64,000 nucleotides of DNA from Promethearchaeia archaeon (GTDB taxonomy: Archaea; Asgardarchaeota; Lokiarchaeia; Sigyniarchaeales; SOKP01), in NCBI GenBank assembly GCA_029856155.1, contig JAHQWL010000098.1:1-64000 (forward strand), read 5' to 3'. Below are positions 56,499 through 59,587 of the stretch, in pieces. The notes below the pieces were generated by a model. It saw only the letters and a program-made list of their open reading frames with translations. It was not told the DNA's origin and searched no databases. Each line of letters opens with the position of its first letter. The stretch's first letter is position 1. The translations under genes were made by a program, and so were the position numbers.

Positions 56499-58067
56499 AT
56501 GAAATTAAAAATTAAAGAAATTAATTTTGAAACTGGCAATACAAAAGACATTGTCTTAAATATTAAGGATGCTCGAGAATTAGGACAAAAAGCGGGAGAA
56601 CGCGTTATTGTAAAAAATATTGTATCAAAATCTATTGAAGAAAAATACTGGGTAGCAATAATTCAAATAGATTTCTTAGGTACCATTGTTGAACCTGGAG
56701 AGATTGGAGTATTTCTTAATCTTTTAAGAGAAAAGAAAGATTTAAAAAATGAAATGATTGTATCTGTAAAACCAGCAGATCCACCAAACTCATTTAGATT
56801 CATACAAAAAAAAATAAAAGGACAAAAACTTTCCAGCGAAGAAATTAATAATATTATCTCTGATGCGGTTTCTGGATCTCTCTCACGGATAGATTTAGCA
56901 GCATTCATAACAGGAGTAGCTATTAATAGCATGGATAACGAAGAAATGACTGCTTTAACTCTAGCGGAAACTAGGAGTGGAGAGATCTTTTATTTCGGAA
57001 TGGATGTCTACGATAAACATAGCACAAAAACCTATATTTCATAGGTTTTGTTAAAAGGCGGCGTCCCAGGGAATAAAGTATCTCTAATTATCGTTCCGAT
57101 TGTTGCTGCTGCTGGATTAACTATTCCAAAATCTTCAACAAGAGCCATAACATCCCCATCAGGTACAGCAGATTCAATGGAAGTCTTAGCTCCCATTGCT
57201 TTCAATCCAGAAGAGTTAAAAAGTATTGTATCTGAAGAAAATGCATGTATAATTTGGGGTGGAGCTCTTGAAACAGCTCCAGCAGATAACATTTTAATAG
57301 AAATTGAACGTCCTTTACATATGGATCCCATAGGTCTTATGATACCTTCTATTCTAACAAAAAAGCTTTCATTAGGAGTTAAAAAGCTTGTTCTTGATAT
57401 ACCGGTGGGCGAAGGTACAAAATTTCCTACAATCGATAAAGGAAAACAGTTTGCTTATTTATTTAAAGAAATTGCTGCAAATGTTGGAATTGAAGCAGAA
57501 TGCGCCCTCACATTAGCTCATCAACCTATAGGTCACGCTGTAGGTCCTGCTTTAGAAGCTAAAGAAGCGCTTACATTATTACGTGAATATTCTGCGGGAC
57601 CTAACTCTTTAATAGAGAAGTCTACTGATTTAGCGGGGATTCTACTTGAAATGGGCGGAAATGCTCTAAAAGGTATGGGACAAAGTTTAGCGAAAGAAAT
57701 TTTACGTTCTGGTAAAGCTTATGAAAAAATGAAAAAAATTATCGAAGCACAGGGGGGAAATCCAGAAATAAAACCCGAAGATATTGAGTTAGGACCACAT
57801 ATTAAAGAATTTTTTGCTTCTAAAGATGGATATATAGTTGATGTAAATAATTCAATAATAAATCGAATAGCAAAAACTGCAGGATGCCCTAACTCGAAGA
57901 CTTCAGGTGTAGAAATTATAAAAAAACAAGGTGCAAAAATAAAAGAGGGAGAATTAGTATTTAGAGTTTATTCACATAATCAATCTAAATTAAGAAAGGC
58001 GGAAAAAATTTATAATACAACAGGAGGTCCAATTCGTCTTGGAGGAATGTTGATTGAGAGAGTATAA
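56499..58067 (+). CDS. AMP phosphorylase (archaeal thymidine phosphorylase family), interrupted by a 30-nt intron; 512 aa after splicing
   Basis: ORFs 56499..57044 and 57048..58067 share one frame; DKHST|GGVPGNK, IPKSSTRAITSPSGTADSMEVL, APADN, LDIPVG, QPIG..GPALEA. Confidence 0.9.
57026..57055 (+). other. Putative BHB-type mRNA intron (30 nt) containing an in-frame TAG
   Basis: Central helix UAGC(57020-23)/GUUA(57050-53), bulges AC^A and AA^A, perfect 9-bp inner helix AAAACCUAU/AUAGGUUUU. Confidence 0.8.
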
Positions 58068-58096: not shown

Positions 58097-59587
58097 ATGC
58101 CTTTAACTCCAAAAGCAATTTATGATGATTTAAAAAATGGTGATTTAGATAAATCCTTTGCGATAGAATTATTAATAACATTAATTGATAATTCAGAGAG
58201 CATTGAAACGCGAATAGAAAGTATCAGAGTTTTAAACAAGATACCATTAAATGATAATCAAACTTTTAAATTTCTAGAAAATTTAATGATTTCAGATTTA
58301 AATGAAAATGTTAGAAAAATTACATGTGAAGTTCTTAAAAATCATTATTTAGAAAAAGTCCTAGTTCCAATATCATGGATGCTTGAACATGAAAAATCAA
58401 TAAACTGTTTATTAACAGGAGTATCTATTCTCGCTGAAATTAATACAAATGATTCTAAATCAATTCTTATAGATAAATTGAATAGTATATACACTAAAGA
58501 ATATAAATATAACTTAAAAGATATATTTAAGATAAAAGATATTGAGAGTTATACAACGCAAGATCTTGCTGAGATCTTATTAAATTTTTATATTACCTCC
58601 TTTTTAAAAGCGAAATATGGTTTTATACATTATGAAATTGATGATATGGGGTTTATTTCAAAATTAGATTTATCTAATGTAGATTCCCAAGGTATATCTT
58701 TGCCGAATTTTCTTGATTCAATTTTTTCTCTTAAATCACTGAAGTATTTTGACTTACGATTTAATCATTTAATTCAATTACCAGAAATTTCAAAAGGATC
58801 AGCTTCTGTAATTTCTATAGATTTAGGTTATAATCATTTAATTAGTCTACCTGATTCTATTGAAAAGTTAAAGTCATTAAAAGTCTTAAATTTAAAATCT
58901 AATAGGTTAAGATCTCTTCCTGACACGTTAGGTAATCTATCATATCTTCAAATCCTAAATTTAAGAAACAATATGCTGAAAAAGATCCCTAGATCAATCT
59001 CATCTCTTAAATCATTAAAGAATTTAGATTTACATGGAAATAAATTAAGTTCCTTTGAAATAAAATTAAATTATTCTATAGAGGAACTTGAATTTGGATG
59101 GAATAATTTTTTAAAATTTCCTACTAATATTAAATATCTTACTTCTTTAAGAAAATTAGGTATGAGTGGAAACAAAATAAAGAAAATACCAAGATGGATT
59201 TCTTTATTACATTCATTAGAAATATTAGATTTATATGATAATGATATATCAAGCTTACCCGATTCGATGGGTGACTTAAAAACATTAAAAATATTAACTC
59301 TACGAAATAATCATCTTTCTACTCTACCTAAATCGTTTATTTATTTAAAAAAACTGAAGACACTTAATTTAAGCTGGAATAATTTCAATTTTTTACCTGA
59401 TTGGATTGGAGAACTTTCTTCATTAGAAGAATTAAATTTATGGGGAAATAAACTTGAAACACTCCCTAAATCAATCAGTTCATTATCAAATCTAAAAATA
59501 TTAGATTTAACTTTCAATAGATTTGAACAAAGTCCAAGATTTTTGAAAGAATTAGAAAGAAAAAATAGACTTATTGTAAAAATTTAA
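58097..59587 (+). CDS. HEAT-like N-terminus + leucine-rich repeat protein
   Basis: ~12 LxxLxLxxNxLxxLP repeats. Confidence 0.88.
   Translation: MPLTPKAIYDDLKNGDLDKSFAIELLITLIDNSESIETRIESIRVLNKIPLNDNQTFKFLENLMISDLNENVRKITCEVLKNHYLEKVLVPISWMLEHEKSINCLLTGVSILAEINTNDSKSILIDKLNSIYTKEYKYNLKDIFKIKDIESYTTQDLAEILLNFYITSFLKAKYGFIHYEIDDMGFISKLDLSNVDSQGISLPNFLDSIFSLKSLKYFDLRFNHLIQLPEISKGSASVISIDLGYNHLISLPDSIEKLKSLKVLNLKSNRLRSLPDTLGNLSYLQILNLRNNMLKKIPRSISSLKSLKNLDLHGNKLSSFEIKLNYSIEELEFGWNNFLKFPTNIKYLTSLRKLGMSGNKIKKIPRWISLLHSLEILDLYDNDISSLPDSMGDLKTLKILTLRNNHLSTLPKSFIYLKKLKTLNLSWNNFNFLPDWIGELSSLEELNLWGNKLETLPKSISSLSNLKILDLTFNRFEQSPRFLKELERKNRLIVKI

What the first reader, a model, noticed from the sequence alone, without database searches (positions are those of the whole stretch)
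57018..57062. Candidate spliced BHB intron in the AMP phosphorylase mRNA, inside the active-site loop
Seen: two ORFs in one frame are separated by a TAG, and the conserved motif DKHS(T/I)GGVPGNK is broken by exactly 30 nt (DKHST-KTYIS*VLLK-GGVPGNK). The insert folds as a 4-bp central helix UAGC/GUUA, a 3-nt bulge ACA, a perfect 9-bp stem AAAACCUAU/AUAGGUUUU with a 5-nt loop, and a 3-nt bulge AAA. The outer helix is weak, so the motif is a relaxed BHB/BHL. Established: archaeal splicing endonuclease (EndA) cuts after the second bulge nucleotide. Applying that rule removes 57026-57055 and gives CAT AGC ACA GGC GGC = H-S-T-G-G, an intact 512-aa enzyme. Protein-coding BHB introns are known mainly from crenarchaeal cbf5. 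Inference: this Asgard archaeon splices a metabolic mRNA with the tRNA-splicing machinery. Unspliced RNA would give a dead 181-aa fragment, so splicing could act as an on/off switch, reminiscent of non-spliceosomal HAC1/XBP1 splicing. Caveat: a one-base-shifted register (AGCA/UGUU) would excise 28 nt and frameshift.
Basis: partly seen in the sequence, partly recalled or inferred. Interest (0 to 1): 0.95.

Follow-up and report, generated by a model that had tools for sequence, protein, structure and literature searches.

The report
tRNA-type mini-intron in AMP phosphorylase gene
The single AMP phosphorylase gene of this Asgard (Promethearchaeota) archaeon is interrupted, inside a conserved catalytic-site motif, by a 30-base hairpin shaped like a tRNA intron. 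Comparison of 36 genomes indicates that it is cut out of the mRNA by the tRNA-splicing enzymes, a route published so far for one archaeal protein gene (cbf5).

Summary
The AMP phosphorylase gene (56499-58067, +) carries a 30-nt insert (57026-57055) with an in-frame TAG inside the motif DKHST|GGVPGNK.

An insert of 29-31 nt sits at the same site in 36 of 154 genomes of the order. All 36 are in one family, spread over ten genera.

- Both exons are open in every complete copy, with dN/dS of about 0.05-0.1.
- Inserts of 29 and 31 nt shift the frame, and 13 of 33 distinct inserts leave exon 2 without a start codon. This excludes readthrough, a two-piece enzyme and a pseudogene.
98% of cells pair.
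- The third base of the His codon covaries with an intron base (U-A 26, C-G 9; at least 5 switches).
- No outer exon-exon helix exists, so the motif is relaxed (HBh').
- The genome encodes two EndA paralogues (one with the broad-specificity loop, one without the catalytic His) and RtcB.
- The intron was lost precisely many times, so an obligatory on/off switch is unlikely.

No RNA data could be obtained, so splicing is inferred, not shown. This scan has reported the same kind of intron on other Asgard DNA before.

The parts
56499..57025 (+). Exon 1 of AMP phosphorylase: ATG 56499 through the first two bases (AC) of the Thr codon of DKHST.
   Evidence: ORF. NCBIfam TIGR03327 profile positions 1-165. 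Aligns to T. kodakarensis AMPpase 4GA5 residues 49-155. dN/dS about 0.05-0.1 for the pairs compared within the family's main clade.
57020..57023 (+). Exon-side strand (UAGC) of the 4-bp central helix H. It covers the third base of the His codon plus the Ser codon.
   Evidence: Pairs with 57050-57053 in 100% of cells across 35 sequences. Pair 57020:57053 is U-A in 26 and C-G in 9, with at least 5 switches on the gene tree. The Ser codon is AGY in 36/36 intron-bearing genes but in 22/36 intronless genes.
57024..57026 (+). 5' bulge ACA. The inferred 5' cut is after 57025.
   Evidence: Three unpaired bases between H and h' in the consensus fold. ACA in 33/36 and ACU in 3/36. The cut position follows the published rule, between the 2nd and 3rd bulge residues (PMC2738675). 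It was not measured.
57026..57055 (+). Inferred intron, 30 nt, containing the in-frame TAG 57042-57044.
   Evidence: Exactly absent from the intronless orthologues. 29-31 nt in 36 genomes. Every one of 33 distinct versions has a stop in the exon-1 frame.
57027..57049 (+). Intron hairpin h': 9-bp stem 57027-57035/57041-57049 with loop AUUUC 57036-57040.
   Evidence: 97% of cells paired. 8 of 9 pairs keep pairing through changes on both sides. RNAalifold predicts it independently.
57050..57053 (+). Intron-side strand (GUUA) of central helix H.
57054..57056 (+). 3' 'bulge' AAA, with the inferred 3' cut after 57055. It is not closed by an outer helix, so it is effectively a single-stranded stretch 3' of H.
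   Evidence: No helix h is predicted. The third base varies A/U/G/C among genomes and becomes the wobble base of the Thr codon after joining, always giving ACN = Thr.
57056..58067 (+). Exon 2 of AMP phosphorylase: the last base of the Thr codon, then GGVPGNK... to stop TAA 58065-58067.
   Evidence: TIGR03327 profile positions 167-500. 4GA5 residues 167-494. 335-337 open codons in every complete copy. dN/dS about 0.05-0.09 for most pairs.

Best explanation
The 30 nt at 57026-57055 are an archaeal endonuclease-type (bulge-helix-bulge family, relaxed HBh' form) intron in the pre-mRNA of the genome's single AMP phosphorylase gene. In the transcript, the last four exon-1 bases before the Thr codon (UAGC) pair with GUUA near the intron's 3' end to form the 4-bp central helix. 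A 9-bp intron hairpin stacks on this helix and leaves the 3-nt bulge ACA at the 5' splice site. The 3' splice site lies in the three bases (AAA) that follow the helix. The heteromeric splicing endonuclease cuts after the second base of each 3-nt element. It consists of a catalytic alpha subunit carrying the Crenarchaea-type specific loop and a non-catalytic beta subunit. RtcB then joins the exons, and the mRNA encodes an intact enzyme of about 512 aa with DKHSTGGVPGNK restored. Unspliced RNA can yield only a truncated 181-aa product. What is shown: the anatomy, its conservation and covariation, selection on both exons, and the presence of the enzymes. What is inferred: the cutting, the exact cut positions and the ligation. 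The intron is old, at least as old as the family clade that excludes one genus, and has been lost precisely many times. It therefore looks like a tolerated passenger rather than a required regulator.
For: (1) The same site is occupied by a 29-31-nt insert in 36 of 154 genomes of the order, all in family f1 and spread over ten genera.
(2) All copies keep about 170-210 open codons upstream and, in every complete copy, 335-337 downstream. This includes the 29- and 31-nt versions, where the exons are in different frames.
(3) dN/dS is about 0.05-0.1 in both exons for most intron-bearing pairs, at saturated dS of 0.9 or more.
(4) All 33 distinct inserts carry stops in the exon-1 frame, and 13 of them offer no ATG/GTG/TTG for exon 2.
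(5) RNAalifold on 35 sequences returns exactly H + 3-nt bulge + h'. 98% of cells pair, 10 of 13 pairs have changes on both sides, and 0 of 500 shuffles reach this. Slid registers pair only 29-49%.
(6) The exon-intron pair (third base of the His codon with the last base of the intron-side strand of H) is U-A in 26 and C-G in 9 sequences and is never mismatched. It switched at least 5 times on the gene tree.
(7) Exon codon usage is constrained only where the intron is present: Ser is AGY in 36/36 with the intron versus 22/36 without.
(8) The cut-after-second-bulge-base rule (PMC2738675) always restores Thr-Gly, whatever the third base of the 3' element is.
(9) The genome has two EndA paralogues. 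One is like the Aeropyrum pernix alpha subunit and conserves K44 and R46 of the loop that confers broad specificity. The other lacks the catalytic His. It also has RtcB. PMC5829648 reports (alpha-beta)2 EndA with this loop across Asgard archaea.
(10) A second gene of this genome (Roadblock/LC7, contig C72) has a 30-nt insert of identical architecture. It is absent at exactly the predicted cut points in nine aligned congeners.
Against: There is no RNA evidence. No RNA run was listed, and the one metagenome contig found carries the unspliced form. The motif lacks the outer exon-exon helix of the canonical hBHBh' motif, so cleavage at the 3' site depends on broad-specificity EndA activity. That activity has been demonstrated for crenarchaeal enzymes, not for an Asgard one. 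The single-sequence folding energy is unremarkable. My genome-wide structure-plus-ORF scan found no excess over frame-shifted controls, so a genome-wide intron count cannot be drawn from it.
Confidence: 0.85

Rival explanations
1. The insert is removed from the RNA, but by a route other than EndA/RtcB, for example an unknown nuclease or ligase that recognises the hairpin, or a self-processing RNA.
For: The 3' site lacks a closing helix, so recognition is not textbook BHB. No biochemical data exist for Asgard EndA.
Against: What is conserved and covaries is exactly the EndA recognition geometry: a 4-bp helix, a 3-nt bulge and a stacked helix. The published cut rule gives the correct reading frame for the 29-, 30- and 31-nt versions. 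A 30-nt hairpin has no room for a ribozyme. The EndA alpha subunit carries the loop known to allow such relaxed substrates.
Confidence: 0.05
2. Recoding on the ribosome: the ribosome bypasses the 30 nt (as in phage T4 gene 60) or reads through the stop, so no splicing is needed.
For: In G000 alone, AAA follows ACA and AAA precedes GGC, which could look like take-off and landing codons. A hairpin with a stop just after the take-off site resembles gene 60 (my own knowledge).
Against: Matched codons are absent in many orthologues, for example ACA GAA...GAT TGG and ACA TAA...AAA GGT. Many versions carry two to four stops, some of them adjacent. Bypass would not explain the exon-intron covariation of helix H. 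Readthrough is impossible for the 29- and 31-nt inserts.
Confidence: 0.03
3. A split enzyme: the 181-aa N-terminal piece and a 339-aa C-terminal piece (starting at TTG 57048) are made separately and assemble.
For: A TTG lies in frame at 57048. 20 of 33 insert versions have such a TTG.
Against: 13 of 33 versions have no start codon between the last stop and GGVPGNK. The TTG is a by-product of the stem/H junction (UUUUG). The break would sit inside the conserved motif and add foreign residues. No ribosome-binding sequence fits in the 3 nt between the TAG and the TTG.
Confidence: 0.03
4. A dead gene: a palindromic insertion inactivated AMP phosphorylase and the locus is decaying, or the insert is an assembly artefact.
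For: As annotated by ORF calling, the gene is broken by a stop.
Against: 36 independent assemblies carry the insert. Both halves stay open, with dN/dS about 0.05-0.1 at saturated synonymous divergence. The insert keeps its structure through compensatory changes. It is the only AMPpase copy in a genome that also has RuBisCO-large and IF-2B-family genes.
Confidence: 0.02

Closest known systems
BHB-type intron in the cbf5 (pseudouridine synthase) pre-mRNA of Crenarchaeota (Watanabe 2002; Yoshinari 2006; Yokobori 2009, PMC2738675)
   Same: A short intron inside a protein-coding sequence that interrupts a catalytic-site codon. An unconventional (relaxed) BHB motif. Predicted cuts between the 2nd and 3rd bulge residues. 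A hetero-oligomeric EndA with the extra loop. A patchy distribution explained by secondary precise loss.
   Different: A different host gene (a metabolic enzyme, not an RNA-modification enzyme). A different phylum (Asgard/Promethearchaeota). A very uniform 29-31-nt hairpin form. Other protein genes of the same genome carry look-alike introns. For cbf5, spliced cDNA and in vitro cleavage exist; here they do not.
Non-canonical tRNA introns with relaxed HBh'/BHL motifs, cut by (alpha-beta)2 or epsilon2 EndA (Marck & Grosjean 2003; PMC3241643; PMC5829648)
   Same: The same recognition geometry and presumably the same enzymes. The own-genome EndA alpha subunit conserves K44/R46 of the specificity loop. 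Asgard tRNA genes are reported to be heavily interrupted (bioRxiv 10.64898/2026.10.13.758758). ARAGORN finds only 23 tRNA genes here, 11 of them with introns.
   Different: The substrate is an mRNA with no tRNA body. The exon part of the motif is made of codons, so protein coding and RNA pairing constrain the same bases.
HAC1/XBP1 unconventional mRNA splicing (Ire1 plus tRNA ligase) in eukaryotes
   Same: Non-spliceosomal, protein-only cut-and-join of an mRNA, using a tRNA-type ligase (RtcB in metazoa). The unspliced mRNA gives a different or non-functional product (my own knowledge).
   Different: The nuclease (Ire1) and the recognition motif (paired stem-loops) are different, and that splicing is stress-regulated. 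No regulation is shown here, and frequent intron loss argues against a needed switch.
Translational bypass of 50 nt in phage T4 gene 60
   Same: A short non-coding gap with a stop and a hairpin inside an ORF (my own knowledge).
   Different: Bypass requires matched take-off and landing codons, which are not conserved here, and it does not predict an exon-intron helix.

Membership tests
Archaeal splicing-endonuclease (BHB) intron | 4-bp central helix H between the 5' exon and the 3' part of the intron | tested here: met
   57020-57023 pairs with 57050-57053. All four pairs are standard in 35/35 sequences, and two pairs change on both sides. There are at least 5 independent U-A/C-G switches.
Archaeal splicing-endonuclease (BHB) intron | 3-nt bulge at the 5' splice site, flanked by H and an intron helix h' | tested here: met
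   ACA 57024-57026 lies between H and the 9-bp stem. The stem is 97% paired, and 8 of 9 pairs have compensatory changes.
Archaeal splicing-endonuclease (BHB) intron, strict hBHBh' form | The second 3-nt bulge is closed by an outer exon-exon helix h | tested here: not met
   RNAalifold finds no helix between the bases 5' of 57020 and 3' of 57056. By eye, only C57018-G57058 could pair. The motif is the relaxed HBh' form, which is a known substrate class for EndA carrying the specific loop.
Archaeal splicing-endonuclease (BHB) intron | Cuts after the 2nd base of each 3-nt element give a functional product | tested here: met
   The rule is from PMC2738675. Applied to all 36 genomes, it restores ...His-Ser-Thr-Gly-Gly... 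in frame for inserts of 29, 30 and 31 nt.
Archaeal splicing-endonuclease (BHB) intron | A host EndA able to cut relaxed motifs, and an RNA ligase | tested here: met
   There are two PF01974 genes. One is like the A. pernix alpha subunit and keeps the KPR of the specific loop. The other lacks the catalytic His. RtcB scores 570 bits. Enzyme activity was not tested.
Archaeal splicing-endonuclease (BHB) intron | The intron is physically absent from the mature RNA | not testable with these tools
   No RNA run was listed. The metagenome scan returned only the unspliced DNA form.
AMP phosphorylase (NCBIfam TIGR03327; T. kodakarensis DeoA, PDB 4GA4-4GA6) | Full-length match to the equivalog model, including the N-terminal domain | tested here: met
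   Exon 1 covers profile positions 1-165 (106.6 bits) and exon 2 covers 167-500 (448.1 bits). Simply added, the scores give 554.7 against a cut-off of 535. PDB 4GA5 residues 49-155 and 167-494 align.
AMP phosphorylase pathway (AMPpase, ribose-1,5-bisphosphate isomerase, type III RuBisCO) | The partner enzymes are encoded in the genome | tested here: inconclusive
   There are two RuBisCO_large and three IF-2B-family matches, and one pair is adjacent on contig C25. This is family-level evidence only; subtypes were not resolved.
Programmed translational bypass (T4 gene 60 type) | Identical take-off and landing codons flanking the gap, conserved among relatives | tested here: not met
   They are present by chance in G000 (AAA...AAA) but absent in many orthologues.

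The most novel reading that the evidence does not exclude
The AMPpase intron is one member of a population of stereotyped mini-introns of about 30 nt (3-nt bulge, 9-10-bp hairpin, 4-bp exon-intron helix) living in the mRNAs of Promethearchaeota. These introns turn over. They are gained de novo: the Roadblock/LC7 intron was seen only in this species among the genus genomes compared. They are also lost precisely and repeatedly: at least 12 changes of state for the AMPpase intron. That would mean active gain and loss of introns in protein-coding genes, with obligatory mRNA splicing by the tRNA machinery, in the closest prokaryotic relatives of eukaryotes. Precise loss would imply recombination with spliced RNA, cDNA or intronless alleles.
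Probability: 0.5. Interest if true: 0.9.

Novelty: new member of a known kind. Interest (0 to 1): 0.72.

Why it matters
In the papers I could search, endonuclease-type splicing inside an archaeal coding sequence is documented only for cbf5 of Crenarchaeota. Here a central-metabolism enzyme of an Asgard archaeon depends on it, and at least one more gene of the same genome does too.

Practical consequence: standard gene callers split or truncate such genes, so metabolic reconstructions of Asgard MAGs will wrongly score AMP phosphorylase, and other interrupted genes, as broken or absent.

Evolutionary consequences:
- The data show an mRNA intron whose exon codons are co-constrained by RNA pairing.
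- The intron persisted across ten genera and was removed cleanly many times.
- This makes intron gain and loss in the prokaryotic relatives of eukaryotes directly testable.

BHB introns are not spliceosomal introns, so the link to eukaryotic introns is by analogy only.

Tried and rejected
RNA evidence:
- The look-up of sequencing runs (kind rna) listed no run.
- A scan of metagenome contigs with a pattern that accepts both the spliced and the unspliced junction returned one contig, carrying the unspliced form.

Mobile element or repeat: the hairpin is unique in the window and in the genome. The Roadblock intron is also unique, so no donor copy was found.

Genome-wide scans:
- I scanned the whole genome for H(4 bp) + 3-nt bulge + hairpin whose excision joins two open frames. 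With thresholds of 50 or 40 codons on each side, and in a looser version for short genes, the counts equalled those of controls with the 3' cut shifted by 1 or 2 bases. Hairpins at gene ends swamp the signal.
- A structure-only count by bulge size also showed no excess at 3 nt.
- These scans therefore give candidates but no valid genome-wide number.

tRNA comparison: the ARAGORN tRNA introns were too few and too uncertain in their boundaries to compare architectures.

Thermodynamics: the single-sequence fold is not better than shuffles.

Readings considered and rejected:
- Shifted register, 28 nt.
- Stop-codon readthrough or an alternative genetic code (29/31-nt versions; stops of all three kinds).
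- Translational bypass.
- Two-piece enzyme.
- Pseudogene or misassembly.
- A single clade of intron-bearing genes. The AU test gave p = 2.6e-54, with the caveat that the group was named after seeing the tree.
Full report
**1. What is in the sequence**

The + strand of 56499-58067 encodes an AMP phosphorylase in two same-frame ORFs, 56499-57044 and 57048-58067, separated by TAG 57042-57044. NCBIfam TIGR03327 (AMP phosphorylase) matches the first piece over profile positions 1-165 and the second over 167-500. The Thermococcus kodakarensis enzyme (PDB 4GA5) aligns over residues 49-155 and 167-494.

The break lies inside DKHST|GGVPGNK. The extra 30 nt read AAA ACC TAT ATT TCA TAG GTT TTG TTA AAA.
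- UAGC at 57020-57023
- ACA at 57024-57026
- a perfect 9-bp stem at 57027-57035/57041-57049
- the loop at 57036-57040
- GUUA at 57050-57053
- AAA at 57054-57056

Taken alone, the fold is not more stable than shuffled sequence. The hairpin is not repeated anywhere in the 4.1-Mb genome.

**2. Relatives**

Close relatives are MAGs deposited as Promethearchaeota, that is Asgard archaea.

- In 41 related genomes the C-terminal part is always present. In the genus it sits either in an open frame of about 512-519 aa or in one of 340 aa.
- A pattern search over 154 genomes of the order found an insert of 29-31 nt at exactly this site in 36 genomes. All are in the window's family (ten genera). None was found in the three other families searched.
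- A protein search of the family found the gene in 121 of 135 genomes. The short open frames coincide with the pattern hits.
- Intronless orthologues read DKHSTGGVPGNK without interruption.

**3. The gene is alive in every intron-bearing genome**

- All copies keep about 170-210 open codons before the site. Every complete copy keeps 335-337 open codons after it.
- This includes the two 29-nt and three 31-nt versions, whose exons are in different frames.
- Between most intron-bearing genes, dN/dS is about 0.05-0.1 in each exon. Synonymous sites are saturated (dS 0.9 or more).
- Every one of the 33 distinct inserts has at least one stop in the exon-1 frame. 13 have no possible start codon for exon 2.

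These results exclude a pseudogene, a misassembly, stop readthrough or an alternative code, and a two-piece enzyme. Only precise removal of the insert remains.

**4. The RNA structure is under selection**

- 98% of cells form standard pairs.
- 10 of 13 pairs keep pairing through changes on both sides.
- None of 500 column shuffles reaches any of the five measures.
- Registers slid by 1-3 columns pair only 29-49%.

The most telling pair joins an exon base to an intron base. The wobble base of the His codon (57020) pairs with the last base of the intron-side H strand (57053). The pair is U-A in 26 sequences and C-G in 9, and it is never mismatched. At least five switches occur on the gene tree.

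Exon codon choice is constrained only where the intron is present. Ser is AGY in 36/36 intron-bearing genes but in 22/36 intronless family members. The 5' bulge is ACA in 33/36, whereas the Thr codon of intronless genes uses all four third bases.

That position is A in 13 of 35 sequences, so this register fails.

**5. Which kind of motif**

There is no outer exon-exon helix. The motif is therefore not the strict hBHBh' but the relaxed HBh' form. The 5' site lies in a proper bulge. The 3' site lies in the three bases following H.

The published rule places the cut between the second and third bulge residues; it is also used for cbf5 (PMC2738675). Applied here, it removes 57026-57055. In all 36 genomes it yields ACN-GGN (Thr-Gly). 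The third base of the 3' element, which varies A/U/G/C, becomes the Thr wobble base.

**6. The machinery**

- The genome has two tRNA-intron-endonuclease genes of about 200 aa.
- One is most similar to the catalytic alpha subunit of Aeropyrum pernix EndA. It conserves the K-P-R of the Crenarchaea-specific loop. K44 and R46 of this loop confer cleavage of relaxed and non-canonically placed motifs (PMC3241643).
- The other has lost the catalytic His, as expected for a structural beta subunit.
- RtcB is present.
- PMC5829648 reports (alpha-beta)2 EndA with this loop throughout Asgard archaea.
- ARAGORN finds only 23 tRNA genes in this 97%-complete genome, 11 of them with introns. This fits the reported heavy interruption of Asgard tRNA genes.

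**7. History**

On a gene tree of 77 sequences, intron presence is scattered. It needs 18 changes by parsimony, of which 12 are forced by well-supported branches. A tree that holds the intron-bearing genes together is rejected (AU p = 2.6e-54; the group was defined after seeing the tree).

The inserts are clearly homologous and occur in the deepest branch of the family apart from one genus. The simplest reading is one old gain followed by many precise losses, or replacement by intronless alleles. The same was proposed for cbf5. Because 85 of the 121 family genomes with the gene do without the intron, an indispensable on/off switch is unlikely. A modulatory role is neither shown nor excluded.

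**8. Not a lone case in this genome**

Earlier first-stage notes of this scan listed further candidates in this genome. My own scan rediscovered several.

- **Roadblock/LC7 gene, contig C72.** The 30-nt insert has the same architecture (ACGU / AUA / 8-bp stem / GCGU / AAA). Its exons match Pfam PF03259 positions 2-35 and 42-90. In all nine congeners that I aligned, the insert is absent at exactly the predicted cut points. Most full-length matches among the 30 other genus genomes searched are 30 nt shorter than the query. This suggests a recent gain.
- **ThiS-like ubiquitin-like gene, contig C64.** The terminal IAGG lies 30 nt beyond a stop. Exon 1 covers PF02597 positions 12-71 of 76.
- **TFS gene, contig C25.** PF01096 is matched only to position 27 of 39. 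Removing 30 nt restores the second CxxC, although H has only 3 of 4 pairs.
- **AIR-synthase-family gene (C44) and C2H2 gene (C102).** Both fit partly.

My genome-wide structure-plus-ORF scan showed no excess over frame-shifted controls. I therefore give no genome-wide count.

**9. What is missing**

No RNA run was listed. A metagenome scan for either junction form found one contig, unspliced. Cutting, the exact cut sites and ligation are therefore inferred.

**10. Comparison and novelty**

The closest precedent is the cbf5 pre-mRNA intron of Crenarchaeota. It has the same enzyme type, the same relaxed motif, the same cut rule, an interrupted catalytic-site codon and a patchy distribution due to loss.

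This case differs in four ways: the host gene is a metabolic enzyme, the phylum is Asgard, the hairpin form is a uniform 29-31 nt, and other mRNA introns of the same shape accompany it.

The papers I could search describe Asgard tRNA introns and the Asgard EndA type, but no Asgard mRNA intron. Other follow-ups of this scan have reported the same kind on other Asgard genomes. I did not re-test those.

I class the finding as a new member of a known kind. Confidence that it is an endonuclease-spliced intron is 0.85. Interest is 0.72.

Noticed in passing
G000 contig C72:105838-106254 (+) = L097:1501-1917; insert C72:106002-106031: The Roadblock/LC7 gene is interrupted by a 30-nt insert with the same architecture (ACGU/AUA/8-bp stem/GCGU/AAA). 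Its exons match PF03259 positions 2-35 and 42-90. Nine aligned genus relatives lack the insert at exactly the predicted cut points, and most full-length matches among the 30 other genus genomes searched are 30 nt shorter. This suggests a recent gain. No donor copy exists in the genome.
   Followed up: yes
G000 contig C25:12684-12830 (+) = L076:585-735: The TFS (TFIIS-type zinc ribbon) gene stops after ...RRADEGMT. Removing 30 nt (a 10-bp hairpin holding two TAA codons) gives ...GMT-HFITCLKCG and so restores the second CxxC. Its central helix has only 3 of 4 pairs (AAUG/CAUG). PF01096 is matched only to position 27 of 39.
   Followed up: partly
G000 contig C64:3191-3430 (+) = L075:292-531: A ThiS/SAMP-like ubiquitin-like gene ends ...VVILPH. 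The expected terminus IAGG-stop lies exactly 30 nt later, after a CCCC/AUA/9-bp stem/GGGG/AGA element. Exon 1 covers PF02597 positions 12-71 of 76.
   Followed up: partly
G000 contig C44:80953-82389 (+) = L072:554-1990; contig C102:41162-41443 (-) = L074:263-544: Two further 30-nt candidates of the same shape. One is in an AIR-synthase-family gene, where exon 2 starts at PF00586 position 43. The other is in a small CxxC...HxxxxH zinc-finger gene. Only weak or partial family support was obtained.
   Followed up: partly
whole genome G000: ARAGORN finds only 23 tRNA genes in a 97%-complete genome, 11 of them with introns of 9-529 nt. Most tRNA genes are probably interrupted in ways the program cannot see.
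   Followed up: no
L095 (G046) and L096 (G048), genus g12: The AMP phosphorylase orthologues of genus g12 have only 84-86 open codons before the DKHST motif. tblastn finds no match to the first 96-97 residues of the window's enzyme. The N-terminal domain is therefore missing, very divergent, or separated by something else.
   Followed up: partly
G100 contigs C103:5011-6018 and C128:7402-8409: One genus genome holds two AMPpase copies, one uninterrupted and one with the intron. The genome is reported at 9% contamination, so this may be a mixture of strains rather than a duplication.
   Followed up: no
G000 contig C25:8718-10510; contig C98:72695-73537 (outside the window): A RuBisCO large-subunit homologue lies next to an IF-2B-family gene (a candidate ribose-1,5-bisphosphate isomerase) on C25, about 2 kb from the interrupted TFS gene. 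A second, weaker RuBisCO-like gene lies about 15 kb downstream of the AMPpase gene on the window's contig.
   Followed up: no
window 58097-59587 (+): The gene directly downstream of AMPpase encodes a 496-aa protein made largely of leucine-rich repeats (LxxLxLxxNxL pattern). I judged this by eye from the translation.
   Followed up: no
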